Below, piece after piece: positions 1 through 41,791 of a stretch of DNA of 41,791 nt; the stretch's first letter is position 1; each line of letters opens with the position of its first letter. The translations under genes and the position numbers were made by a program. Source of the stretch: a virus. Lineage: Duplodnaviria; Caudoviricetes. The notes under the pieces were generated by a model, which saw only the letters and a list, made by a program, of their open reading frames with translations, made no database searches and had not been told where the DNA came from. Location of the stretch: IMG/VR virus record IMGVR_UViG_3300037420_000858, positions 1 through 41,791 of that record; one strand, 5' to 3'.

Positions 1-127
1 GCCCTGCTCAAGGATGCGATAAACGCCGTCGATCTCCGGCTTCAGCGCGTCACCGATGACCTTCCACTCGCCCGACGCGGCCAGCTCGGCAGCTTCCTTC
101 GGGCTGACCATGTGCGCGTACCCGAGC
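1..127. repeat. Terminal direct repeat (left copy); circularisation overlap
   Basis: Identical to 41665-41791; the 127-nt length is typical of an assembler k-mer overlap; a reading frame continues across the join. Confidence 0.95.
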
Positions 128-18896: not shown

Positions 18897-19201
18897 CAGT
18901 CCACGTCCCACATGATCGCCGCCCGGATCGCCTCTGGCGTGTTCGCGGCGGCGCGCCGAGCATCGCGACATCGCCAGCACTCCTCTCCGGGGGCATTGCA
19001 TCGCTCGCCGCCGCAGTAGTGGCACGGGAACCGAACCGGGTTCGCGGCCGGACCGCCGATGTCACCTGGAGTGCAGTAGTAGTTGTTCCCCGACGACGCA
19101 CGGACATGGAGAAAGACCGCGTCTGGCGCGGAATAGAACACAAGCTGGCCGCAGTTCTTGCAGGGGGCCGCCTCGCGCGCATAACGGGACAGGTCGCTCA
19201 C
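18896..19201 (-). CDS. Cys-rich hypothetical protein
   Basis: CKNC, CHYC and CWRC motifs. Confidence 0.55.
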   Translation of the reverse strand: MSDLSRYAREAAPCKNCGQLVFYSAPDAVFLHVRASSGNNYYCTPGDIGGPAANPVRFPCHYCGGERCNAPGEECWRCRDARRAAANTPEAIRAAIMWDVD

Positions 19202-19566
19202 TTCGCCCTCCGACGCTCATGCCTTACCACAGCCTTGATCCCGCTCTCAACGAGCTGCGCCCCCGTCCTGCGACGCCGATCGCGAATGACCGCCCCAAGG
19301 TTGGCCTCATCCCAACCAGCGAGCTTGAGCTGAAGCGCCGCCTTCGCCGCCATGTCCGTCATCCGGTCGATCGCCATGTCGAGCTGGATCGCGTCGAGCA
19401 TCAGCGTCGGATCGCCCTTGTCGTAGGCCACTTGCTTCTGCTCCCAGTACGTCGGCTTGACGCTCTTCTTGAAAACCCATTCGTCCGTGCCGGGCTTCCG
19501 TCGCCATTCACCACCCTCGACAAGTTCGAGCACGAAGGAATCGGTCCACACGCGGTCATCCCACAT
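19198..19566 (-). CDS. Putative transcriptional activator with a sigma70 region-4-like HTH
   Basis: C-terminal LDMAIDRM...LKLAGWDEANLGAVI...GAQLVESGIKAV resembles a region-4 HTH. Confidence 0.45.
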   Translation of the reverse strand: MWDDRVWTDSFVLELVEGGEWRRKPGTDEWVFKKSVKPTYWEQKQVAYDKGDPTLMLDAIQLDMAIDRMTDMAAKAALQLKLAGWDEANLGAVIRDRRRRTGAQLVESGIKAVVRHERRRAK

Positions 19567-19720
19567 GCCGCGCCTCCACAAATGACCGCGCCTCGCGAAT
19601 CGAATCGAACAGGCCCAGCAGCACGAGGAGGTACGGCACGAACACGAGGCCGCCCTCATTTAGAGGCAGGTCGCGAGGATCGAACTGCATCCCGTCGAAA
19701 CTCGTTGCGACCGTCCTCAT
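19556..19720 (-). CDS. Small protein (54 aa), not in the ORF track
   Basis: MRTVATSFDG...YLLVLLGLFDSIREARSFVEARHVG; overlaps both neighbours in typical phage fashion. Confidence 0.5.
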   Translation of the reverse strand: MRTVATSFDGMQFDPRDLPLNEGGLVFVPYLLVLLGLFDSIREARSFVEARHVG

Positions 19721-19953
19721 CGCCGCACCCGCGCGATCGCCTCGCGGTACTCCCCCAGGAGCGCCTCGGTTGCCGTCACGTCCGCATCGACCTTCTCGAT
19801 CAACGCCGCAAGCTCCGAGTCGACACGATCCACCAGCGCCACCACGCGATCCCGCTCCTCACGCTCGAGCTTCAGCCGCGCCTTCAGGTGGTCACGTTCG
19901 CGCCGCAGGATCTCCACTGGCGGGCGGTACAGATCTTGGTCCAAGCTCGTCAT
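19717..19953 (-). CDS. Coiled-coil hypothetical protein
   Basis: GAGGGG RBS; heptad pattern. Confidence 0.6.
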   Translation of the reverse strand: MTSLDQDLYRPPVEILRRERDHLKARLKLEREERDRVVALVDRVDSELAALIEKVDADVTATEALLGEYREAIARVRR

Positions 19954-19985
19954 CAGCCCCCCCTCGGCTGGTTGTCTTGGACACA

Positions 19986-20019
19986 ACTATAGCCACCGAT
20001 CCCTCACGTACGCGAGCGC
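19986..20019 (-). promoter_or_regulatory. Putative late promoter, copy 1
   Basis: CGCTCGCGTACGTGAGGGA-N6-GC-TATAGT-T; near-identical element at 40170-40203. Confidence 0.55.
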
Positions 20020-20997
20020 GCTCGGGCGGGACTATTCCAGCTAAGAGATCACTGGTAGCTCATAGCTATAGAGCCCATACTTGGTTGATCTCTTAGCAAC
20101 CCCCAGAAAAGAACTAGAGCTAAAGCTCTAGTCAGAAAAGAGGGGTCACGCCGAAGTCAGCCGATGCCGTGCCAGTGGTCAGAGGAACCGCACCGACCAG
20201 GGCTCGCTGCCCAGCCCACCACGCCCTCACCTCACGACACTGGCAGGGCTCACCCCGCCGTACCGTTGCACGGCACATCCACCACGCCGACAGCCCCGAA
20301 ATAGCCATCACTCGCTCAGGGCCATTCCCAGCTCAAAACCGCCCTCCAAGCACATACCCTAGCGGCCCAGCCCTAGCGTGGCCTCTCCGCGGCTCTCAGG
20401 GGCCTCAGAATCGGTATCAGATCGGTAGAGCACACTACCGACCGACCAGACGCCCCCAGGCGCGAATCTCGACAGGCCAGCAATCCCCGAGGCTCCCTAC
20501 GCGTACGCGTGAATGACGCAGCAGCGAAACAGGGGCTCAGAGGGCTCGGTTTGGCGTACAGGCAAAAAATAGCTTGTGCCAATAGCAGTTCATATACACA
20601 CCCCACGCGCGGGGGTAGGGGTGGCCTGGCCCGCGATCGCGTCGTCCTTCCCTGTCATAGCAGGACCAGCCCACGGCACAGCGCGGGATTCGATGCGCTG
20701 GCCTCGCTACGTGGACTTGTAGCGCCCGGCGGGGCGTATCGAGCTGGCACGGCAGGGGATTCTGCGGCGTGGCGGTTTCCTCGGCGCGAGGGTTGGTAGC
20801 GATTCACCACGTCATCCCGCCCATCCCGCATTCACCATCCCGATCCGTGGACGACGGCCCCCGCTATCCACGCTTAGCCAGCTTGGGGTTGATCGTGCCG
20901 CTCGCGGGGCTCGCTTATCCCTTGCGCCAGTGGCGTGTGGGTGCACGGCGCTCGCACTGATTCTACTTGAATCTACGCTCGTATCGGTAATGATCCG

Positions 20998-21025
20998 TTG
21001 CACACTACCGATAGATGGGTAGACT
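20998..21025 (+). promoter_or_regulatory. Early rightward sigma70-type promoter with a CTACCGA box in the spacer
   Basis: TTGCAC-N16-TAGACT upstream of the first plus-strand gene. Confidence 0.6.
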
Positions 21026-21058
21026 GAAGGCAGCAATCACCACCGAAGGGCAACCACC

Positions 21059-21400
21059 ATGATGCATTCCACTCGCGCCCACTCGATCCGCGACGTGAGC
21101 ACCGCCGACGAGCTGGCCGATCTGCTCGCTGACCACGCCTGGACCACCTGCACCGGCTTTCGGCTCGGCGGCTGGCTGTGGCTGAACGATTCAACTAGCG
21201 AGAACGGCGCGCAGGAGTTCGCCGTGGTCCACGAGGGCGAAGGGATGCAGCACGATAGCTGGACCTGCTCGTGGATGACGCGCGATCGCTGCGAGGAGTT
21301 GATTCTTGCCACCGTTGCAAACCCGTCCCCCGAGTGGCACTTCGGCCGCGTGCAAGTGAATCTTGCTGGTCCCGCTCACCGCTGCGGTGCCTGCGCCTAG
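21059..21400 (+). CDS. Early hypothetical protein (113 aa)
   Basis: GAAGGG RBS; first gene after the promoter. Confidence 0.7.
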   Translation: MMHSTRAHSIRDVSTADELADLLADHAWTTCTGFRLGGWLWLNDSTSENGAQEFAVVHEGEGMQHDSWTCSWMTRDRCEELILATVANPSPEWHFGRVQVNLAGPAHRCGACA

Positions 21401-21419
21401 TTGCCATGAACCCAACTAT

Positions 21420-21460
21420 CGCCCGGTATGCGAGAGCAGGGGATCGGATCCCCACGGGCG
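21420..21460 (+). ncRNA. Mini tRNA-like element 1
   Basis: CGCCCG/CGGGCG closing stem, TGC-GAGA-GCA GNRA hairpin, GGGG-ATCGGAT-CCCC T-arm-like hairpin. Confidence 0.45.
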
Positions 21461-21494
21461 GTTTGCCTCAGGGGTTGCAGCCTGAGGTTCTAGA

Positions 21495-21533
21495 CCCGGA
21501 GTGCTCACCGTACCGGGAGCAAGAAACGGTGAG
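21495..21533 (+). ncRNA. H-type pseudoknot
   Basis: S1 CCCGG/CCGGG, S2 CTCACCGT/ACGGTGAG, A-rich loop 3. Confidence 0.5.
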
Positions 21534-21630
21534 TGGAGGCGCGACAGGGGCGGCCCGGTCGTTCGGTTCACGGCCAGTGGCCGGGTCGTCCCGCCTCCAT
21601 ATTACCCAACCACCACGGAGGTTCAACCCC

Positions 21631-21807
21631 ATGTCACCTGCAACCACCACCCTGGCCCGGCTTGACCGCGCTATCGACGACGCAACTCGACACGGCCGGT
21701 ACGAGCTGGCGAACATGCTGCGATGCGAGCGTGCAGACCTGCGACTAATGATGCTGGAGCCTGCGGGTACGGCGCGGCTGCTGGGCGTGATCGGGGGCCG
21801 GTCGTGA
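21631..21807 (+). CDS. Early hypothetical protein (58 aa)
   Basis: GGAGG RBS, ATG at 21631. Confidence 0.65.
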   Translation: MSPATTTLARLDRAIDDATRHGRYELANMLRCERADLRLMMLEPAGTARLLGVIGGRS

Positions 21808-21989
21808 GGCGCATCGAGCAGGGCGAGTTCGTTCGCCACTACCTGACCGGCTTTGAGTACGTCGTGACGGAACTCCTGCCGTGCCGACTTGCGCGGGTGG
21901 CCGACGCTGACAACGAGCGTGTGTATCCAGTCGTGGAGTTGTCGGCGTGCGCGCCGTGGCCAGAGCGTGAGGGTGTGTCCCGTGCCTAG
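21804..21989 (+). CDS. Early hypothetical protein (61 aa)
   Basis: GTGA overlap with the upstream stop. Confidence 0.55.
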   Translation: MRRIEQGEFVRHYLTGFEYVVTELLPCRLARVADADNERVYPVVELSACAPWPEREGVSRA

Positions 21990-22128
21990 CCATATCGAAG
22001 TCCGCCGCCACCCGTGGGCACCCGGCCTCACCTACCGCGTTGTCGGTGGCCGCGAGAACGGGCGGTCGCTCACGATCGCGGAGTATGACCGGCTCGTTGC
22101 GGCTGGCGTGCCAGTGATCCGACGCTAG
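21982..22128 (+). CDS. Early hypothetical protein (48 aa)
   Basis: GAGGG RBS, GTG start, overlaps the previous gene. Confidence 0.5.
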   Translation: MPSHIEVRRHPWAPGLTYRVVGGRENGRSLTIAEYDRLVAAGVPVIRR

Positions 22129-22149
22129 TTGACCCGGACACAACCTACG

Positions 22150-22190
22150 GCCGCGAACGGTTATCCCCCGGTTCGATTCCGGGGCGCGGC
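22150..22190 (+). ncRNA. Mini tRNA-like element 2
   Basis: GCCGCG/CGCGGC stem stacked on CCCCGG-TTCGATT-CCGGGG, a canonical T-loop. Confidence 0.55.
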
Positions 22191-22224
22191 GATGCAAGTG
22201 CAACCACCAACGAGAGGAACCACC

Positions 22225-22482
22225 ATGCAGCACACACCAGGACCGTGGGAGGTCTACGGAGAGCGCAATATTCGCCCCGTCGCCAACTCGGGAAGCGTGT
22301 TCGACGACATCGCGCAGGTAGACCGCGAGCCGCGAGCCGCAAACGCGACCCTCATGGCGGCATCCCCGGATCTTCTCGCTGCCCTAATCGCTGCTCGCCC
22401 GCTGATCGACGTGACGCACCCGCGAGCCGCAGAGGTCCACCGGATCGTCGAGCGAGCCTTGGCCAAGGCCACCGGCAACTAG
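22225..22482 (+). CDS. Phage early protein of the HTPGPW...ANAxLIAAAPDLL type
   Basis: MQHTPGPWEV...ANATLMAASPDLLAAL; GAGAGG RBS. Confidence 0.75.
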   Translation: MQHTPGPWEVYGERNIRPVANSGSVFDDIAQVDREPRAANATLMAASPDLLAALIAARPLIDVTHPRAAEVHRIVERALAKATGN

Positions 22483-22489
22483 CCACCCC

Positions 22490-22533
22490 TCTCCCGCACG
22501 GCGCGAGCTGCCCGATCAAATCGGGCCGGGAGA
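22490..22533 (+). ncRNA. Mini tRNA-like element 3
   Basis: 7-bp TCTCCCG/CGGGAGA stem, CGGC-GCGA-GCTG GNRA hairpin, GCCCG-ATCAAAT-CGGGC 5-bp stem with 7-nt loop. Confidence 0.55.
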
Positions 22534-22566
22534 CTTAGCACCACCCACGGAGTAAGGGAGCGGCAC

Positions 22567-22785
22567 ATGACCGCGAAATGGCGCGTATGGCTGTTAGCCA
22601 ATGAGTACGTGAACGGGCAGATCCCCGCAGACCTGGCCAGCGACGTGTTCGTAGCCGAGTTCGACAAGCGATCCGAAGCACTCGCCTACGTCAAGGGATC
22701 AGGGTACGTGGCGAACGTCGCCGCATGGTCGATGGGCAAGGCGAAGTGGCAGACCTGCTACCGGATCGAGCAGGTGCCCGCATGA
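22567..22785 (+). CDS. Early hypothetical protein (72 aa)
   Basis: AAGGGAG RBS. Confidence 0.7.
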   Translation: MTAKWRVWLLANEYVNGQIPADLASDVFVAEFDKRSEALAYVKGSGYVANVAAWSMGKAKWQTCYRIEQVPA

Positions 22786-22883
22786 TCGTCCCGGATTGGC
22801 TTTACGAGTTGACGTACAACCCGATTGGCTGGTGGGTCGCGACCTGGCTGGCCTTCCGTTTCGTCGCCCGACGCATCGCGTAA
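22782..22883 (+). CDS. Small hydrophobic peptide (33 aa)
   Basis: ATGA overlap; MIVPDWLYELTYNPIGWWVATWLAFRFVARRIA. Confidence 0.5.
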   Translation: MIVPDWLYELTYNPIGWWVATWLAFRFVARRIA

Positions 22884-22893
22884 GTGGCTGACG

Positions 22894-22946
22894 CGCCCCC
22901 CTGCCTGTGCTTCTTGGTGGTTGCCACGGGCGGGGGGCGAATCTTT
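22894..22946 (+). terminator. Long GC hairpin whose loop is antisense to the early-gene leader boxes
   Basis: About 15-bp stem with G-U pairs that favour the + strand; loop CTTCTTGGTGGTTGC; followed by AATCTTT. Confidence 0.55.
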
Positions 22947-23011
22947 GGAATCGAAGGAGTAAGCGAATGGCAGAGAACGCCCATTACAAGCCAACGAATG
23001 AGGTAACGTAA

Positions 23012-23458
23012 ATGCACAAGGAAGCTGGACAGAGCACGGGCGGGGGCATCCTGCTGGGCGGTATCGGCGTGGTCCTGATCTGCGGCGCGCTGTTCGGCTC
23101 GTGCGCTGGCATCAAGTCGTTCACGCGCTACCAGCGAGTCGCTGACAACAAGGTTGAGCGACAGGTCGCACGCGCTAATGCGAAGAACAAGGTGCTGATC
23201 AACGAGACGCGGATCAAGCAGACGCATCAGTTGATCCAGGTCGAGAACCAGAAGGCCGCGATCCGCGTGGCCGAAGCGCAGGGCATCCAGAAGGCGCAGC
23301 GCATCATCAACGCGAGCCTCACGCCGCTGTACCTGCAGCACGAGGCGATCAAGGCGCAGCTCGCAATGGCGAAGGGCGAGAACCACACCGTGGTCTACGT
23401 GCCGTCCGGTGACGTTGGCGTGCCGCTCGTGTCGCAGATCCCCGGAGCAGTCAAGTGA
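23012..23458 (+). CDS. Membrane protein with a band-7/SPFH-like C-terminal coiled coil
   Basis: N-terminal TM helix; IRVAEAQGIQKAQRIINASLTPLYLQHEAI...VVYVPSG. Confidence 0.65.
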   Translation: MHKEAGQSTGGGILLGGIGVVLICGALFGSCAGIKSFTRYQRVADNKVERQVARANAKNKVLINETRIKQTHQLIQVENQKAAIRVAEAQGIQKAQRIINASLTPLYLQHEAIKAQLAMAKGENHTVVYVPSGDVGVPLVSQIPGAVK

Positions 23459-23706
23459 CCGGGGTATCCGACACGCTGCGACAGTCGCCCACGAACATCA
23501 CACGCCGCCCGCGCTCGAAGTGGGATGCGCTGGCACCCCTATTCCGGTGGCTCGGCGGGACAGCGATCCTGTTCGCGTCGGTGCGGGCTGGTGCCCCCGG
23601 CTGGCTGCCGTGGGCCGTGCTCGGCTCGGTCGGCATCTTGAGCGCGTTCATCCCAGATGTGGGCGAGGCCGTGGCCGACGCCATCGAGCGAGGTGAGCAC
23701 CGATGA
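23455..23706 (+). CDS. Two-TM membrane protein
   Basis: Two hydrophobic segments; GTGA overlap. Confidence 0.6.
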   Translation: MTGVSDTLRQSPTNITRRPRSKWDALAPLFRWLGGTAILFASVRAGAPGWLPWAVLGSVGILSAFIPDVGEAVADAIERGEHR

Positions 23707-24359
23707 TCGGAGACTGCGACCACGGCTACCAGCTCGACGAGCGATGCCCGGTGTGCGACCCCGCGCCCCAGGTATCCAACAGCGAGCGAGAAATGAAGCC
23801 TGATCCCACATGCCCGACCGTCGGCCTCTGCATGGGCGACCACGAGTGCCACGGTGGATGCAAGGACACGAAGCCTTATGCCGCCAACGGACGGGACCGT
23901 GGCCACGTCTGGAAGACGTACGAGGGAACCGACGACGTGGACATCTTTGGGTTCAACCCGTACGACCCGCACAACGGGCCGATCTGCGTGCGGTGTGGCT
24001 ACGGCTACTGCCACCATTGCCAGCGAGGTCCCGACGAGGACTGTCCCGGCGAGAGGGTATCCGACAGCGAACCGGATCAGACGACTGATCTCTCAGGAAG
24101 TCTAGGGCCGTCTAAGGCCCAGCCTTATACGACGACGAACATCGCCGTCCGCGACGGGGCGCTACTCACCGAGCGTGCCCACGCCAAACTCGCGCACGCC
24201 GGCAACCTGCCACGACAGCGCGACTACGAACAGGTCGCGGCAGACGAGCGCGCGCGGATCGAGCGGATCATCGAGGCAATGGCGCACGGTCCTGCCGACG
24301 AGACGCACGTGCCGCTACGCAAACTGCTCGCCGCGATTCGAGGGGGCGACGATGCCTGA
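23703..24359 (+). CDS. Cys/His-rich mosaic protein (218 aa)
   Basis: Several CxxC/H clusters; C-terminal module shared with 32464-32676. Confidence 0.6.
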   Translation: MIGDCDHGYQLDERCPVCDPAPQVSNSEREMKPDPTCPTVGLCMGDHECHGGCKDTKPYAANGRDRGHVWKTYEGTDDVDIFGFNPYDPHNGPICVRCGYGYCHHCQRGPDEDCPGERVSDSEPDQTTDLSGSLGPSKAQPYTTTNIAVRDGALLTERAHAKLAHAGNLPRQRDYEQVAADERARIERIIEAMAHGPADETHVPLRKLLAAIRGGDDA

Positions 24360-24786
24360 GTGCATGGCATGCGAGGACAAGCCGAGTGGCGACAACGTGC
24401 CCTGTGCCGTGTGTGGCAACGACAGGAACATGCCAGGCGATCAGGTAACCGGGACGCAACATCCATTGCCGACCATCGACGCGTGCATCGGCAGCGAGGG
24501 AACCATCATCCTCTCGCCGCAGGTGTGGCTCAGGCACCTCAAGGACGGCGAGAGCATCACGTCGCCCGTGCCGATGCCCGACGACCTACTCACCACCGAC
24601 GAGTTCAAGCTCGCGGTCCTCGAACTGCAGCGGCAGCACGGCGACATGGTCCGATACCTGCAGGACTGGGCGACGGACGTCACCGAGCAGCACGAGCACT
24701 CGAATTGGGACGAGGTCCACAGCGACTGCACGGCGTGCGCCTATCAGGCGATGCTCGACCGTTGGGAGGCGAAGCGTGTCGACTGA
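24352..24786 (+). CDS. Hypothetical protein (144 aa)
   Basis: MPECMAC...CAVC; coupled to the previous gene. Confidence 0.6.
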   Translation: MPECMACEDKPSGDNVPCAVCGNDRNMPGDQVTGTQHPLPTIDACIGSEGTIILSPQVWLRHLKDGESITSPVPMPDDLLTTDEFKLAVLELQRQHGDMVRYLQDWATDVTEQHEHSNWDEVHSDCTACAYQAMLDRWEAKRVD

Positions 24787-24988
24787 CCAGCGGCAACAAC
24801 GGTTCGAGCCCCGTTCCGGCGACGAGGCCATCGCATACGAGGCGGGCCGCCGCGAAGAGCGAGAGGCGATCATCACCTACGGCGCGGGATGGATCGAGGG
24901 CTACACCGGCGACGACCTGCCGGAAGTGGCGATGGCGCTCGATGGGTTCCTGACCGACCTGAGGGAGCGGCAGCACGATGTCGACTGA
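24776..24988 (+). CDS. Hypothetical protein
   Basis: GGAGG RBS, GTG start, chained overlap. Confidence 0.6.
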   Translation: MSTDQRQQRFEPRSGDEAIAYEAGRREEREAIITYGAGWIEGYTGDDLPEVAMALDGFLTDLRERQHDVD

Positions 24989-25190
24989 CCACGAAGCAAG
25001 GTTCGAGGACAAAGCGACCGCGTCGCGGCTCGTGTTCGACATCGACGACATCGGCGACCGGATGATGGGCGTGCGCTTCTCGCCGGCCGACACCGAGCGC
25101 ATCAACGACGCCATCCTGCGCCTCTCGCGGGTGGTGGTGAAGTGCGGCCTCTACGCCACGTCGCATGGAGGGCCGAGCGATGCAATCTGA
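24978..25190 (+). CDS. Hypothetical protein
   Basis: GGGAG RBS, chained overlap. Confidence 0.6.
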   Translation: MSTDHEARFEDKATASRLVFDIDDIGDRMMGVRFSPADTERINDAILRLSRVVVKCGLYATSHGGPSDAI

Positions 25191-25503
25191 CGACTGCTTC
25201 ACCGGCACGTGTGGGCGATGCCGCTCGTGCGCCGCGAAGGCGACTGACCGCCAAGACGACTTGCCGCCCGATACGCGCCGGTGTCCGAGCCATGACGGTT
25301 CAACGCTGCACGGCTGCGAGCACTGTCGCGCCGAGGGCGAGAAGGCCGCGACCGAACGCATCGCTGCGCTGCTCGAATCGCCGTGGTGGAAGGCCGTCGA
25401 GGACGAATGGATGCAGTCGAGCGGCACGACGCGCGGAGAGATCGCGGCCGAGTGGTTGCGCGGCAAGGTGCCGCAAGGCGAGTTGGAGCCCAACGATGCG
25501 TGA
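25180..25503 (+). CDS. Cys-rich hypothetical protein
   Basis: GGAGG RBS; CGRCRSC and CEHC. Confidence 0.6.
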   Translation: MQSDDCFTGTCGRCRSCAAKATDRQDDLPPDTRRCPSHDGSTLHGCEHCRAEGEKAATERIAALLESPWWKAVEDEWMQSSGTTRGEIAAEWLRGKVPQGELEPNDA

Positions 25504-25810
25504 TACCACCGGTAGTCCGACCATCCACCCCGAGGGCGACGGCGTGACGATCTGCCCGGGATGCGGCAACGAGGTCCAATACCCCGAATCGTCGTTCCTC
25601 GGCGCGTTCGATGGGAAATCGCGATGGGGCCACAAGGCGTGCGTCGAGGGCATCCCGAACGACGTGCAGCGAACCAGGGCGATCCGTCGCGCGAAGCTCG
25701 ACGCGCTCGTGGCACTCGCGAAGCGGAAGGTGGGCCCGCGTGACTTCGACGACCTGCACACCATCGACGCAGCCGAGGGAGTGATCGAGCGTGTCTTCCG
25801 TGTCGAATAG
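25496..25810 (+). CDS. Zinc-finger hypothetical protein
   Basis: GGAG RBS; CPGC...HKAC. Confidence 0.6.
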   Translation: MRDTTGSPTIHPEGDGVTICPGCGNEVQYPESSFLGAFDGKSRWGHKACVEGIPNDVQRTRAIRRAKLDALVALAKRKVGPRDFDDLHTIDAAEGVIERVFRVE

Positions 25811-26147
25811 CAACGACTGCCTTGCAGCGCCCTGGACGCCCGGCCCGTGGGACTGGATGGACGATGGTGGACTCGACTTTGACGTGCGCCACGACTGCCC
25901 AGACGACGAGTACGACCGCCACGTCGCGACCGTCTCGTGTCAGGAGGTCGGCGTCCGCGAGGCGCTCGCGAACACGGAACTGATCTGCCTTGCGCCGGCG
26001 ATGGCCGAGGCGATCCAGTACGCCGCGACGCAGCACCGCGACGGCAACGCTGTGTGTGTGGCCGAGCACTCGCGTCCCTGTGTCGTGTGTGACACCGCCG
26101 CGAAGCTGCGTGCCCTGTCCCGACCCGCCGAGGAGGCAACCCCGTGA
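25791..26147 (+). CDS. Second TPGPW-type phage protein
   Basis: WTPGPWDW...ANTELICLAPAMAEAI; paralogue of 22225-22482. Confidence 0.65.
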   Translation: MSSVSNSNDCLAAPWTPGPWDWMDDGGLDFDVRHDCPDDEYDRHVATVSCQEVGVREALANTELICLAPAMAEAIQYAATQHRDGNAVCVAEHSRPCVVCDTAAKLRALSRPAEEATP

Positions 26148-26314
26148 GGATCCCGCCCCGACTATCCGACGACCAGGCCCGCAAGGCCATCGCCATCGTC
26201 GAGAAGTGCATGGCCGACCTGCGGGCGATCGGCGCGAACGACCTCGCATGGAAGATCCGCATGCTCCCCGAGTTCATCAAGCTCGACGATCGCGTGAAGG
26301 GGAAGTGGTCGTGA
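26144..26314 (+). CDS. Hypothetical protein (56 aa), not in the ORF track
   Basis: AGGAGG RBS, GTGA overlap; MRIPPRLSDDQARKAIAIVEK... Confidence 0.55.
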   Translation: MRIPPRLSDDQARKAIAIVEKCMADLRAIGANDLAWKIRMLPEFIKLDDRVKGKWS

Positions 26315-26352
26315 CCGGGTTGCCTGACAGCGCATCGCAGAAGCGCAAGTAT

Positions 26353-26577
26353 CTAGTGGCGCGCGTCCATGACCATCGCGATCTCTGCCATCGCCTCCGC
26401 GAGATCGGCATACGACACGCGTAGATGTAGCTGGTGCCACTCGGCCCCGACGATCACATGCTGCGGATCCTGCGGGTCGAACGTGAGGGTCAGCGGATCA
26501 TCCTTGCCGATGTACGGCGTGCTGGGATCGGGATGATGCTGCGGGATGGTGACGGTGGTGAGCGAGATGATGGCCAT
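26353..26577 (-). CDS. Hypothetical protein divergent from the excisionase (74 aa)
   Basis: ATG at 26577; fills an otherwise empty gap. Confidence 0.5.
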   Translation of the reverse strand: MAIISLTTVTIPQHHPDPSTPYIGKDDPLTLTFDPQDPQHVIVGAEWHQLHLRVSYADLAEAMAEIAMVMDARH

Positions 26578-26632
26578 GCGGGAGATCCTACCGGGCTCGC
26601 ATGATGGACTCAGCGACGCTATAGTTGGGGCC

Positions 26633-26884
26633 ATGCCTACCAGACAACAACTCGAGTACGCCGCCTCCCTCATGGATACCCTGCCCGCGATCGCGGATCG
26701 CCTGGGAATCACCGACGAAGCGTTGTTCAAGCTCGAGCGCACGCAGGAGAGCTTCCCTCTGCCGATCGCGGTATGGGGCAGGGCCAGGGTGTACTGGGTT
26801 GAGGAGGTGTTGGAGTTCCATCTGCATGTCGGACGCATCTATGGCCGGGGTAGGACAATCAGCGAGCGGAGGGCAAGTCGATGA
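26633..26884 (+). CDS. Putative excisionase / AlpA-like HTH protein
   Basis: LPAIADRLGITDEALFKL...FPLPIAVWGRARVYWVEEV winged-HTH pattern; next to attP. Confidence 0.7.
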   Translation: MPTRQQLEYAASLMDTLPAIADRLGITDEALFKLERTQESFPLPIAVWGRARVYWVEEVLEFHLHVGRIYGRGRTISERRASR

Positions 26885-27039
26885 TCGATGGGGGCTGCGC
26901 CCTGGTTGTTGAGCGCGGGCGGCTCGAGGGATTTGTGGTGATCGACGGCCGGACGTGGTACGTGTTTTGGGACGGATTTCTCCCCTCGGACGGCGATCGG
27001 GGGGATCTCCGGACCCTCTTCCGCTACCAAGAGGTGTAG
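26881..27039 (+). CDS. Small protein (52 aa), not in the ORF track
   Basis: ATGA overlap with xis; ends just before a terminator. Confidence 0.45.
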   Translation: MIDGGCALVVERGRLEGFVVIDGRTWYVFWDGFLPSDGDRGDLRTLFRYQEV

Positions 27040-27064
27040 CGCCGCACACTGTAATGGGTCCGGC

Positions 27065-27093
27065 AGGGCCGCCTTCGGGCGGCCTTTGTTTTG
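27065..27093 (+). terminator. Rho-independent terminator
   Basis: AGGGCCGCC-TTCG-GGCGGCCTTT followed by GTTTT. Confidence 0.8.
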
Positions 27094-27147
27094 CCGCCAG
27101 CGAGACCAAAACAAGTCCACGAGCCTGAGTACCGGCCCGATCGAGAG

Positions 27148-27179
27148 CAAAGAAAAACCCCCGAGTTCCGGGGGCTTTC
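27148..27179 (-). terminator. Terminator downstream of the attP tRNA fragment
   Basis: GAAAGCCCCCG-GAACT-CGGGGGTTTTTCTTT on the minus strand. Confidence 0.8.
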
Positions 27180-27181
27180 CG

Positions 27182-27228
27182 TAGTGCGCGATGCTGGGAT
27201 TGAACCAGCGACCCCTGCCATGTCAAGG
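27182..27228 (-). mobile_element. attP core: 3' half of tRNA-Val(GAC)
   Basis: CC-TTGACAT-GGCAG-GGGTC-GCTGG-TTCAATC-CCAGC-ATCGCGC-A gives anticodon loop, T-arm and 3' acceptor strand; no 5' half; directly downstream of the integrase. Confidence 0.85.
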
Positions 27229-27264
27229 AAGCACGGTACCGAATATCCTACCGACTAGGTAGCG

Positions 27265-28425
27265 TCACTTCGAAGCAAATGCCGATTCGATCGTCGCCAC
27301 CTGTACCGCTTTCGCTACCGAGTAGGTAGTGCTAGGTTCAAGTCCACGAGCTGGCAAGACCACAGGCAAGTCCACCGGCTTCGCTACCGGCATGCTGGCC
27401 AGGTCGTACGCATCCAGCAGCGCCCGCTCATGGTCCTCGCCGTCACGCGCGAAGTGGCCGTACGTCTTGTCGATCATCTTCAGGCTGGTGCCCATGCGCT
27501 TCGCGAGCATGAACGTGTTGAGCCCCGCCCGCAGGCCCCACGTCGCGTAGGTGTGGCGCGTGTCGTACGGACGCATGTGCGGCAACGGCTCACGCCCCTG
27601 CTTGGCACGATCCTCGTTCACGCTGTCGATCGCCGCCTGCCACACCCGACGCCGCCAGTTGCGGATGTCCACCGGGTAGCCGTCCGGCGTTTGGAACACC
27701 AGCCCCGACTTGCGCTGGCCGATGATCTGCTCGAACGCCTGAGCGGCGCTTGCACGCAGCGGGACGATACGAGCGGGCGTCTTGGGCTTCACGATCTGCA
27801 CCGGCAGGCGTAGTGCGTGGCTGGCCAGGTCCACATGCTCGACCCGCAGCTTCGGCCACTCCTGCGGACGTAGCCCGGTCCCGACCTGCGCGACGAGCCA
27901 GCCCTTGTAGTGCTCCTCCATCTCGGCTTCGAGTTCCAGCACCGTCTCCCAGTCGGGGATCGGGTACATCTCACTGGCCTGCGGTGCCGGATTCTTGATG
28001 CCCTTCGCCGGGTTCTCCGGAATCAGCTTCCAGAGGACCGCCTTCTCGAGCGCCTGCTTGAGGGCCGCGAACGCATCGTGCCTGGTGTTCTCTGTCGGCA
28101 GGCTGGAGCGCCATACTTCGAGGTCGTGTGGCTTGAGGCTGGCGATGCGCTTGTCGTCGAGTGGCGCGGCGTGCGCGAGGCGGAACCGCAGGCTGGTGAC
28201 GCGCTCCTCGCTGGCGTGATGGGTGTCGAGGAACCGGTCGACGAGCTGGCCCACCGTCATGCGATCGTCGTGCGTGACGCCGCTGTCCTGTTCACGCATG
28301 CGCTGGCGATACCACTTCTCGGCGTCGCCTCGGGTTCGGAATCCGCCTTTGCGTCGTTGGGTGCCGGTGGCGTCGTAGTAGCGGACGCTCCAGGTCTTGC
28401 CGCGCTGGGTGTAGCTACCGGCCAT
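27265..28425 (-). CDS. int: Tyrosine integrase (386 aa)
   Basis: Arm-binding N-terminus WSVRYYDATGTQRRKGGFRT; GLRPQE, YDTRHTYAT, MGTS and TYGH catalytic boxes. Confidence 0.92.
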   Translation of the reverse strand: MAGSYTQRGKTWSVRYYDATGTQRRKGGFRTRGDAEKWYRQRMREQDSGVTHDDRMTVGQLVDRFLDTHHASEERVTSLRFRLAHAAPLDDKRIASLKPHDLEVWRSSLPTENTRHDAFAALKQALEKAVLWKLIPENPAKGIKNPAPQASEMYPIPDWETVLELEAEMEEHYKGWLVAQVGTGLRPQEWPKLRVEHVDLASHALRLPVQIVKPKTPARIVPLRASAAQAFEQIIGQRKSGLVFQTPDGYPVDIRNWRRRVWQAAIDSVNEDRAKQGREPLPHMRPYDTRHTYATWGLRAGLNTFMLAKRMGTSLKMIDKTYGHFARDGEDHERALLDAYDLASMPVAKPVDLPVVLPARGLEPSTTYSVAKAVQVATIESAFASK

Positions 28426-30557: not shown

Positions 30558-30593
30558 CAGTACCCTCCCCGTCGTCGGTAGTCAGCAACACGC

Positions 30594-30621
30594 ACTCTAC
30601 CGAATCGGCAGCGCCGCGCAA
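30594..30621 (-). promoter_or_regulatory. Leftward promoter for the initiator-dnaB-int operon, with overlapping operator
   Basis: TTGCGC-N16-TAGAGT; CTACC-GAATC-GGCAG overlaps the -10 element and spacer. Confidence 0.55.
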
Positions 30622-30835: not shown

Positions 30836-31237
30836 ATGACAAGCGCCCCACAGATTGCACCCATCCCCGAACCAATCGGTAACATCGCGACGGTGACTGA
30901 CCTGCCGCCGCTGAACCCAGGCAAGCTCCTCACCGGAGCCAACATCCGAGCCGCCCGCAAGGCGCAACGCTTCACCAAGCGACGCTTCGCGGAGGAACTG
31001 GGTGTTACCGAAAAAACGGTCTACAACTGGGAACACGAAGTATCAGAACCCGAGGGCGAGAACCGCATCAAGGTACTCGAACTTCTCGGCCTAGAGGACC
31101 CGCGCATCGTGGGTACCGGCCGCGTGCTCTCGCTCGATTCCGGAACCGATCAGGTCGCAGCGATCAAGAACCAGATCGCTTCCCTGCGGGCCGCGCTCGA
31201 GACACTGGCATGGCAGGTCGATCAACTAGAGCGATGA
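30836..31237 (+). CDS. XRE-family HTH repressor (immunity regulator candidate)
   Basis: NIRAARKAQRFTKRRFAEELGVTEKTVYNWEHEVSEP HTH_3 pattern; C-terminal coiled coil; no S24 peptidase. Confidence 0.85.
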   Translation: MTSAPQIAPIPEPIGNIATVTDLPPLNPGKLLTGANIRAARKAQRFTKRRFAEELGVTEKTVYNWEHEVSEPEGENRIKVLELLGLEDPRIVGTGRVLSLDSGTDQVAAIKNQIASLRAALETLAWQVDQLER

Positions 31238-36645: not shown

Positions 36646-36762
36646 ACTCTACCCACCGCGCTACCGACTTACTACCTACTCGATGTGGTATTCGGTAGAT
36701 TCAGTGGAGAACAGGTAGCGATGGACGGTTCGCCTACTACCGACCCGTAGACATACACGCGG
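36646..36762 (-). promoter_or_regulatory. Control region of the leftward early arm
   Basis: TAGAGT -10 at 36646-36651; three CTACCGA boxes; CGCGTGTATGT element. Confidence 0.5.
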
Positions 36763-41664: not shown

Positions 41665-41791
41665 GCCCTGCTCAAGGATGCGATAAACGCCGTCGATCTC
41701 CGGCTTCAGCGCGTCACCGATGACCTTCCACTCGCCCGACGCGGCCAGCTCGGCAGCTTCCTTCGGGCTGACCATGTGCGCGTACCCGAGC
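41665..41791. repeat. Terminal direct repeat (right copy)
   Basis: Identical to 1-127. Confidence 0.95.

What the first reader, a model, noticed from the sequence alone, without database searches (positions are those of the whole stretch)
21033..22946. Candidate antisense-loop RNA switch over the early operon
Seen in sequence: three early genes each have two (G)CAACCACCA-type boxes flanking the RBS or start. Gene 21059 has boxes at 21033-42 and 21050-59; gene 21631 at 21607-15 and 21640-49; gene 22225 at 22200-10 and 22218-25. Downstream, an approximately 15-bp hairpin (22894-22939) displays the 15-nt loop CTTCTTGGTGGTTGC, which contains the exact reverse complement of GCAACCACCAA and can pair at 14 of 15 positions (one G-U) with 22200-22214. 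G-U pairs in the stem indicate it folds on the + strand, so the loop is antisense to the boxes rather than another copy. Established knowledge: P1/P7 C4 and P4 CI are processed small RNAs that silence early genes by loop pairing to paired target boxes. Inference: this is an analogous but unrelated RNA timer or immunity circuit that shuts down early translation once the operon has been transcribed.
Basis: partly seen in the sequence, partly recalled or inferred. Interest (0 to 1): 0.85.

Follow-up and report, generated by a model that had tools for sequence, protein, structure and literature searches.

The report
Phage hairpin loop mirrors early-gene leaders
In an uncultured temperate phage, the most stable predicted RNA hairpin in the genome has a 15-base loop complementary to the ribosome-loading regions of three upstream small genes, so it likely acts as an RNA brake on their translation, although no such RNA and no conservation in relatives has been shown.

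Summary
All six boxes and the hairpin (22894-22939) are where stated. The hairpin gives the lowest-energy 50-nt window of the genome, and its loop ranks the starts at 22225, 21059 and 21631 first among 54 starts (0 of 150 loop shuffles did as well). The loop also pairs with the Shine-Dalgarno bases after the box.

The boxes alone are ordinary: the same double C/A-rich start layout occurs in 40 other viral loci, none with a displayed antisense loop nearby. There is no Rfam match, no promoter or U-tract terminator defining a discrete RNA, no RNA data, and no DNA from relatives, so covariation is untested. The phage has its own Xre repressor gene, so a timer or feedback role fits better than immunity.

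Best reading (0.55): a stable 3' or processed piece of the early transcript damps translation of its own upstream genes. It works like C4/CI or GcvB but is not a member. The closest published parallel is the cluster K mycobacteriophage SAS; I confirmed its lone reversed copy sits in a conserved hairpin loop. This scan has noted the same architecture in other phage genomes before.

The parts
20998..21025 (+). Putative promoter of the + strand small-gene operon (TTGCAC-16-TAGACT); start site would fall near 21032, i.e. at the first box
   Evidence: pattern scan (6 such matches genome-wide, so the pattern alone is weak; position after a ~1 kb gene-poor gap supports it); the sigma-70 scan found none
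20983..21012 (.). Inverted repeat ATCGGTA...TACCGAT over the promoter; same TACCGA motif at the repressor/replication divergent region and attP (candidate repressor or integrase sites)
   Evidence: (I1); function inferred
21033..21047 (+). Leader box 1a, 26 nt before the start; 12 of 15 pairs with the loop
21050..21064 (+). Start-overlapping box 1b; 13 of 15 pairs
21059..21400 (+). 113-aa gene of unknown function; start confirmed by alignment with 12 homologues
   Evidence: no informative fold match
21398..21418 (.). TAGTTG-N9-CAACTA palindrome (second motif family, genome-wide)
21606..21620 (+). Leader box 2a plus SD (GGAGG 21617-21), 25 nt before the start; 13 of 15 pairs
21640..21649 (+). 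Box 2b inside the first codons of the 21631 gene; 10-nt perfect core
21631..21807 (+). 58-aa ORF of unknown function
   Evidence: no family
22126..22146 (.). TAGTTG-N9-CAACCT palindrome (second motif family)
22150..22191 (+). tRNA-like minihelix (6-bp acceptor-like stem on a 6-bp T-arm with loop UUCGAUU) just 5' of box 3a; candidate processing site
   Evidence: predicted fold; ARAGORN and Rfam call nothing
22200..22214 (+). Leader box 3a plus start of SD, 25 nt before the start; best target, 14 of 15 pairs
22216..22230 (+). Start-overlapping box 3b (core 22218-25); 12 of 15 Watson-Crick pairs
22225..22482 (+). 85-aa gene, PHROG 1273 (unknown function)
22538..22552 (+). Weaker fourth leader box, 29 nt before the 22567 start; 11 of 15 pairs, predicted only -6.5 kcal/mol
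22782..22883 (+). 33-aa hydrophobic ORF whose stop lies 10 nt before the hairpin
22894..22939 (+). The hairpin: 15-bp GC-rich stem, one bulge, one G-U; no strong U-tract after it
22910..22924 (+). 15-nt loop CUUCU-UGGUGGUUGC: anti-SD-like 5' part plus anti-box 3' part
27265..28425 (-). Tyrosine integrase (temperate lifestyle); tRNA-Val-like attP candidate at about 27180-27230
30836..31237 (+). Xre-family HTH protein, likely the immunity repressor

Best explanation
The hairpin at 22894-22939 carries a loop complementary to the leaders of three upstream genes of its own operon, and it likely acts as an antisense RNA that damps their translation. Shown: the operon's first genes have C/A-rich boxes 25-26 nt before the start and again over the start, and the loop is complementary to box plus SD in one register. 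Inferred: the boxes are translation-enhancing, unstructured ribosome-loading tracts; transcription from the promoter at 20998 makes the leaders first and the hairpin about 1.9 kb later; the very stable hairpin survives as the 3' end or as a processed fragment of that transcript and accumulates; its G/U loop then nucleates on the boxes (probably 8-10 bp, since a closed loop cannot wrap a full 15-bp helix), masks the enhancer, SD or start codon, and cuts translation of these genes in trans or on the same molecule. The result would be a delayed negative feedback that limits the earliest genes to a short burst, while genes downstream of the hairpin, which lack the box, are spared.
For: Loop-only interaction energies with accessibility rank 22225 (-13.4), 21059 (-12.5) and 21631 (-12.4) first among 54 hand-called starts; next is -10.3. 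0 of 150 composition-preserving loop shuffles matched either the third-best score or the three-target mean; a cruder ungapped count gave 3 of 1000. Of the 8 non-self sites in the genome with at least 12 of 15 Watson-Crick pairs, 4 are these leaders, 3 lie on the non-coding strand of - strand genes and 1 lies within a coding sequence. The hairpin is the lowest-energy 50-nt window scanned and holds the only reverse copy of the 9-mer; analytic chance is about 2e-5 per 15-nt loop. The loop's 5' CUUCU extends pairing into the SD bases at 21606, 22200 and 22538. Other U-tract terminators exist in this genome, so this large-loop, tract-poor hairpin is a different kind of element. Parallel: the single reversed SAS of mycobacteriophage Adephagia lies in a hairpin loop; the stem is kept in 7 of 7 cluster K phages aligned and the anti-SAS loop in 6 of 7 (I chose 6 diverged rows from 20 listed of 131 matches). 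Silencing of ACA-type enhancers by a small RNA is established for GcvB (PMC3879156, abstract).
Against: No covariation or conservation for this phage: no relative's DNA was reachable, and the listed pieces of three other soil runs over the boxes were identical copies, with no piece across the hairpin. No promoter directly feeds the hairpin and no strong terminator bounds it. The boxes need no regulator to be explained: 40 viral loci carry the same double-box start layout, 36 of 40 before an ORF of at least 60 aa and 25 of 40 with an SD-like spacer, and none had a displayed antisense loop within 4 kb. A loose empirical null gave 2 strong loop-displayed reverse copies in 434 kb of high-GC viral DNA, about 0.2 per genome of this size, though both were low-complexity, apparently coding repeats. 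The loop is partly self-paired on the + strand. The same sequence read on the other strand is the ordinary N-terminal start of an unrelated phage gene (L300). One non-leader site (11504-18, - strand, after the capsid gene) scored as well as the best leader in the genome-wide scan.
Confidence: 0.55

Rival explanations
1. The boxes are plain C/A-rich translation-start tracts, and the hairpin is one of a series of intergenic stems (21546-92, 22150-91, 22485-535, 22894-939) that serve as processing, stabilising or weak termination signals in the early transcript; the loop complementarity is incidental or a relic of an inverted start fragment.
For: Every long intergenic gap of this operon folds into a strong structure just 5' of a start. 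The double box is common in other phages without any antisense loop. The reverse strand of the loop region equals a common N-terminal codon run (L300). The loose null is not negligible in high-GC DNA.
Against: The match is a 10-11 nt exact complement of the one repeated leader motif, it extends into the SD register, and it sits in the top-ranked hairpin. Neither strong null hit was a leader motif. A 15-nt loop is large for a terminator (established knowledge).
Confidence: 0.25
2. The 9-10 nt motif is a protein-binding site (on DNA, or on mRNA for a translational repressor); the copy in the hairpin is a further site or, on a minus-strand transcript, a decoy loop displaying the box itself.
For: On the - strand the loop is almost fully open and shows GCAACCACCAAGAAG. 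CAACCA is also a half-site variant of the genome-wide GTTG-N9-CAAC palindromes. For cluster K SAS, the authors leave RNA or protein binding open (PMC3203893 passages).
Against: No convincing - strand promoter leads into the hairpin: only a lone -10-like hexamer at 23010. The - strand fold is weaker (-26.7 vs -33.0). The boxes lack the partner half-site of the palindromes. A protein site would not explain wobble-tolerant pairing into the SD.
Confidence: 0.12
3. A C4/CI-type immunity RNA: made constitutively in the lysogen by processing of a short early transcript, it blocks or prematurely terminates the early operon of the prophage and of superinfecting kin.
For: The phage is temperate. A tRNA-like minihelix at 22150-91 could be an RNase P-type processing site (predicted fold), and C4 and CI are RNase P substrates (PMC5499578, PMC5320573 passages).
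Against: The hairpin lies about 1.9 kb downstream, behind the genes it would silence, so they must be transcribed first; CI lies in the leader between its targets (PMC4825925 passage). There is a separate Xre repressor with operator-like repeats on the early promoter. No antirepressor family was found among the boxed genes, and the fold is a single stem-loop.
Confidence: 0.08

Closest known systems
Start-associated sequences (SAS/ESAS) of cluster K mycobacteriophages (Pope et al. 2011, PMC3203893)
   Same: Asymmetric repeat at the starts of a subset of non-structural genes, one lone copy in the opposite orientation away from any start, and a second family of inverted repeats. I found the lone reversed SAS displayed in a conserved hairpin loop.
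   Different: Unrelated sequence (SAS is a purine-rich extended SD; here the box is C/A-rich and lies before the SD and over the start). 11-19 SAS per genome versus 3-4 leaders here. The function of SAS is itself unknown, and the passages I read in three SAS papers mention no hairpin.
c4 antisense RNA of phages P1/P7 (Rfam RF01695)
   Same: Phage RNA using loop sequence to occlude ribosome-binding regions of co-transcribed genes.
   Different: C4 is a ~77-nt three-stem RNA with two recognition loops (a', b'), RNase P-processed, targeting the antirepressor message (PMC5320573, PMC12197685 passages). Here: one stem, one loop, located downstream of its targets, and no antirepressor identified.
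CI RNA of satellite phage P4
   Same: Antisense RNA cut from the same transcript as its targets.
   Different: CI lies in the leader between seqA and seqC and causes premature termination (PMC4825925 passage). Here the targets are three translation starts spread over 1.2 kb, all upstream of the hairpin.
GcvB sRNA of enterobacteria
   Same: Small RNA silencing ACA/CA-type translation enhancers just upstream of the SD of several mRNAs (PMC3879156 abstract); the G/U-rich seed is recalled.
   Different: GcvB is a chromosomal stand-alone sRNA with its own promoter and Hfq dependence (recalled). No sequence relation (no Rfam match); here the element is a hairpin loop inside a phage operon.

Membership tests
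C4 antisense RNA (P1/P7, RF01695) | Match to the C4 covariance model | tested here: inconclusive
   No Rfam hit in the window at gathering score, none in 19000-28000 at E<=5 other than one chance match. The dedicated RF01695 search was also silent, but so were all 14 control genomes.
C4 antisense RNA (P1/P7, RF01695) | Three-stem fold with two recognition loops a' and b' | tested here: not met
   Predicted single stem-loop with one 15-nt loop.
C4 antisense RNA (P1/P7, RF01695) | Recognition sequence exposed in a loop and complementary to the RBS region of co-transcribed genes | tested here: met
   (prediction only)
C4 antisense RNA (P1/P7, RF01695) | Target is an antirepressor message | tested here: inconclusive
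   No antirepressor family among the boxed genes in PHROGs, Pfam or NCBIfam; they are of unknown function.
C4 antisense RNA (P1/P7, RF01695) | Released as a discrete RNA by RNase P | not testable with these tools
   No RNA run listed.
P4 CI RNA | Located in the operon leader between two complementary targets, one upstream and one downstream | tested here: not met
   All boxed targets lie upstream; the hairpin is about 1.9 kb into the operon; downstream starts score weakly (22967: -2.5, 23012: -3.2).
P4 CI RNA | Causes premature transcription termination and confers immunity | not testable with these tools
   Needs transcript mapping and infection assays.
Cluster K SAS/ESAS | 13-bp GGGATAGGAGCCC consensus | tested here: not met
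   The leader motif here is a different, C/A-rich sequence.
Cluster K SAS/ESAS | Start-associated asymmetric repeat with a single reversed copy away from starts | tested here: met
   4 forward exact copies at or near starts, 1 reverse copy in the loop.
GcvB-type sRNA | Seed complementary to C/A-rich enhancers upstream of several SD sequences | tested here: met
   (prediction only)
GcvB-type sRNA | GcvB sequence family; stand-alone gene with promoter and terminator | tested here: not met
   No Rfam match; no promoter or U-tract terminator at the hairpin.
Canonical intrinsic terminator | GC stem with 3-8 nt loop followed by a U-tract | tested here: not met
   Not among the 7 terminator-like sites in 19500-28000; loop is 15 nt and the tail reads AAUCUUUG.

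The most novel reading that the evidence does not exclude
The loop is the complement of a generic C/A-rich start signature that many unrelated phages also use (40 loci found), so one short phage RNA could act both as a self-timer and as a broad translational block on co-infecting unrelated phages or on host messages with the same leaders. Together with the cluster K reversed-SAS hairpin, it would be one case of a widespread, convergent 'one loop against a shared leader tag' regulon in phages.
Probability: 0.12. Interest if true: 0.85.

Novelty: new variant of a known kind. Interest (0 to 1): 0.6.

Why it matters
Few phage-encoded RNA regulators of phage genes are known, and how phages switch off their first genes without a dedicated protein is mostly open. 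A single loop matched to a shared leader tag would be a compact multi-gene timer. [quoted passage not shown] The value is limited by the lack of relatives, host and RNA data here, and the architecture has been noted by this scan in other genomes.

Tried and rejected
Relatives: gene 21059 found nothing in viral contigs. Clade-specific terminase and integrase patterns found 0 in viral contigs and 0 in GTDB genomes. blastn of the region and of the hairpin against GenBank phages found nothing useful.

Host: an exact attP pattern found no GTDB genome; Atlas neighbours of the integrase are mixed, with Actinomycetota the commonest phylum in 6 of 10 structure rows; the host is unresolved. Expression: no RNA holder listed, which is no evidence either way.

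Second loop: a hairpin at about 21465-88 with loop GGUUGCAG is complementary to 21638-45, but it is lost in a longer fold and does not rank the boxes in a genome scan; not counted. Nested co-folding cannot model loop-target pairing and its dimer energy column was mis-indexed; ignored. The coarse genome scan (step 4) missed the 22200 site, so searches were used. In some searches, 4 of 54 start coordinates were off by a few bases; none is among the top three. The first null used a threshold that the + strand hairpin itself failed, so it was rerun.

Whole-record check: 28 of the 40 double-box records were searched; 10 had both orientations; 12 short and 5 long stretches were folded and none showed the 9-mer open on a long clean stem. 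gp21059 fold (pLDDT 83): no match at E<=0.001 in BFVD and best Z 3.7 in PDB, uninformative.

Papers: the primary C4 and CI papers (PMC41593, PMC176756) are not held. Literature searches listed no paper describing this motif or a phage loop against a shared leader tag; the library lacks most subscription papers, and I opened no supplements (the SAS site tables in PMC3203893 Fig. S3 and PMC12699233 Table S3 may bear on the parallel).
Full report
Setting. The window is a whole, circularly closed phage genome (127-nt terminal repeat; 64% GC). It has head and packaging genes and a replication module on the minus strand, a tyrosine integrase with a tRNA-Val-like attP candidate, and an Xre-family HTH gene at 30836-31237. 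It is therefore temperate. The finding lies at the start of the only long plus-strand operon (21059 to about 27040), a string of small genes of unknown function behind a putative promoter at 20998-21025. 'Early' is inferred from this layout. The record is held by soil and rhizosphere runs (only the possible source run covers the whole stretch), and the host is unresolved.

Observation. All six boxes are at the stated coordinates. Exact CAACCACCA occurs four times on plus, all at or within 25 nt of three starts, and once on minus, in the loop; with one mismatch there are 15 matches against 6.3 expected. The hairpin 22894-22939 has a 15-bp stem, one bulge and one G-U pair, z = -4.5, and gives the lowest-energy 50-nt window among those scanned at 5-nt steps on both strands. 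The 14-of-15 pairing to 22200-14 is correct. Two refinements: only one G-U pair argues for the strand, and the plus-strand loop is partly self-paired, costing 2.6-4.3 kcal/mol to open.

Specificity. With accessibility-corrected duplex energies, the loop alone ranks 22225, 21059 and 21631 first among 54 hand-called starts (-13.4, -12.5, -12.4; next -10.3). None of 150 shuffled loops reached the third-best score or the three-target mean; a cruder count gave 3 of 1000. Of eight non-self sites with at least 12 of 15 Watson-Crick pairs, four are these leaders, three lie on non-coding strands and one is within a coding sequence. The upstream boxes sit 25-26 nt before their starts (29 for the fourth), and the loop's 5' CUUCU reaches into the SD bases that follow. 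So the loop reads as 'anti-box plus anti-SD'. One non-leader site after the capsid gene scored equally well in a coarse genome scan.

What counts against. The boxes are not special. The pattern box-N6-12-AACCACC-ATG occurs in 40 viral loci, 36 of 40 before an ORF of at least 60 aa and 25 of 40 with an SD-like spacer. None had a displayed antisense copy within 4 kb. In 28 of those 40 records searched whole, 10 had both orientations, and none of the 12 short and 5 long stretches folded showed the 9-mer open on a long clean stem. This cuts both ways: paired boxes are ordinary C/A-rich start tracts and no sign of a C4-type target, but the hairpin is not an automatic by-product of having them. An empirical null (repeated 9-mer with its reverse complement displayed in a nearby hairpin) gave 6 cases in 2.75 Mb, 2 of them strong, both in the 434 kb high-GC subset and both low-complexity, apparently coding repeats; the loci are partly redundant. 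The reverse strand of the loop region also equals the first codons of an unrelated phage gene (L300), so the sequence is a generic 5'-end signature. No promoter feeds the hairpin directly, and it is not a canonical terminator, although such terminators exist elsewhere in the genome. Rfam finds nothing.

The missing test. Relatives exist as proteins (terminase 61-86%, integrase up to 74%), but every route to their DNA failed. The listed pieces of three other soil runs over the boxes were identical copies, and none crossed the hairpin. Covariation is untested, and no RNA run is listed.

Mechanism. Shown: complementarity, its ranking, the hairpin's predicted stability and its position 10 nt after the stop of the last small ORF in the boxed block. 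Inferred: the boxes enhance translation, as ACA motifs do in GcvB targets (PMC3879156, abstract); the hairpin persists as a transcript 3' end or processed fragment; the loop nucleates on the boxes, probably over 8-10 bp for topological reasons (established knowledge of loop-target pairing), and masks enhancer, SD or start. Because the hairpin is made about 1.9 kb after the first leader and would accumulate, the circuit is a delayed negative feedback on the earliest genes; downstream starts score weakly and would be spared. Pairing could be in trans or on the same molecule. An immunity role is less likely: the targets must be transcribed before the hairpin, and an Xre repressor with TACCGA inverted repeats over the early promoter is available. 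The functions of the target genes stay unknown.

Comparison. C4 is a three-stem, two-loop, RNase P-processed RNA against an antirepressor message (PMC5320573 passages; PMC12197685 section 7; PMC5499578 passages). CI lies in a leader between its targets and causes termination (PMC4825925 passage). This element works like them in using a loop against co-transcribed targets but fails their structural and positional criteria. The nearest parallel is the cluster K SAS: a start-associated repeat with a single reversed copy, plus inverted repeats, function unknown (PMC3203893 passages; PMC11373665 and PMC12699233 passages). Following a lead from this scan's notes (e1-6457251), I checked it: Adephagia has 16 forward SAS matches and one reversed copy at 58682, displayed in a hairpin loop. 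The stretch matches 131 phage records; among Adephagia and 6 diverged records I chose, all 7 fold the stem and 6 keep the anti-SAS loop. This supports the architecture as a recurring one but is not evidence about this phage. The present genome likewise has a second, palindromic motif family. The scan's earlier notes list similar candidates in other phages (8 shown of 45 word matches); they are unchecked leads, not support, and none matched this DNA.

Verdict. Observation confirmed; interpretation partly supported. A likely antisense-loop brake on the first genes of an early operon (0.55), against a structural hairpin with incidental complementarity (0.25), a protein site or decoy (0.12), and a C4/CI-type immunity RNA (0.08). 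New variant of a known kind; interest 0.6.

Noticed in passing
window 11514, 19300, 19971, 20084, 21400, 22128, 30130, 34241, 38469 (plus degenerate copies at 2727, 16133, 26624, 40140): Palindrome family WRGTTG-N9-CAACYA: 9 exact GTTG-N9-CAAC against 0.5 expected, and sharply specific for a 9-nt spacer (0 for 6-8 and 10-12). Several sit at gene boundaries, overlapping a TAG stop or just before an SD, and most have a spacer biased in the direction of transcription. Likely sites for a dimeric DNA-binding protein (stoperator- or ESAS-like).
   Followed up: partly
window 20411-20441, 20984-21011, 27237-27321, 30575-30603, 30683, 30789, 36662-36743: TACCGA/TCGGTA repeats cluster at putative promoters, at the repressor divergent region and around attP; candidate repressor operators or integrase arm sites.
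   Followed up: no
window 22150-22191 +: tRNA-like minihelix (12-bp coaxial acceptor/T stack with a canonical T-loop and a D-loop-like linker AACGGUUA) immediately before the best target box; possible RNase P site or 5' stabiliser.
   Followed up: partly
window 21546-21592 + and 21590-21621 +: Second most stable hairpin of the genome (about 20 bp, RNase III-like), followed by GCCUCC that can sequester the GGAGG SD of gene 21631 with the box in the loop.
   Followed up: no
window 21626-21599 -: A minus-strand promoter-like match (TTGAAC-16-TAATAT) straddles box 21607; it could drive an antisense transcript over the structured intergenic region, or be chance.
   Followed up: no
window 22967-23011 +: 14-codon ORF with its own SD right after the hairpin, its stop abutting the ATG of the 23012 gene (leader peptide or coupling ORF).
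   Followed up: no
window 27180-27230 -: 3' half of a tRNA-Val(GAC)-like sequence beside the integrase and two U-tract terminators: likely attP; no exact match in GTDB genomes.
   Followed up: partly
window 1-127 and 41665-41791: 127-nt terminal repeat: the record is a circularly closed phage genome of about 41.66 kb, with head, portal and internal virion protein genes, and no long tape-measure-sized ORF.
   Followed up: yes
window 19990-21030: About 1 kb gene-poor region between divergent operons with several AGCT-rich inverted repeats (20040-20135); possible packaging site or origin.
   Followed up: no
L359:28660-28715 (Adephagia 58660-58715); L360-L365: The lone reversed SAS of cluster K mycobacteriophages is displayed in a conserved hairpin loop; SirPhilip keeps the stem but has a different loop.
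   Followed up: yes
L353/L354 (G020), L355 (G014), L356 (G008): Unrelated phages with 7-15 copies of CAACCACCA on one strand and few or no reverse copies: strong strand-specific C/A-rich tracts without an antisense hairpin.
   Followed up: partly
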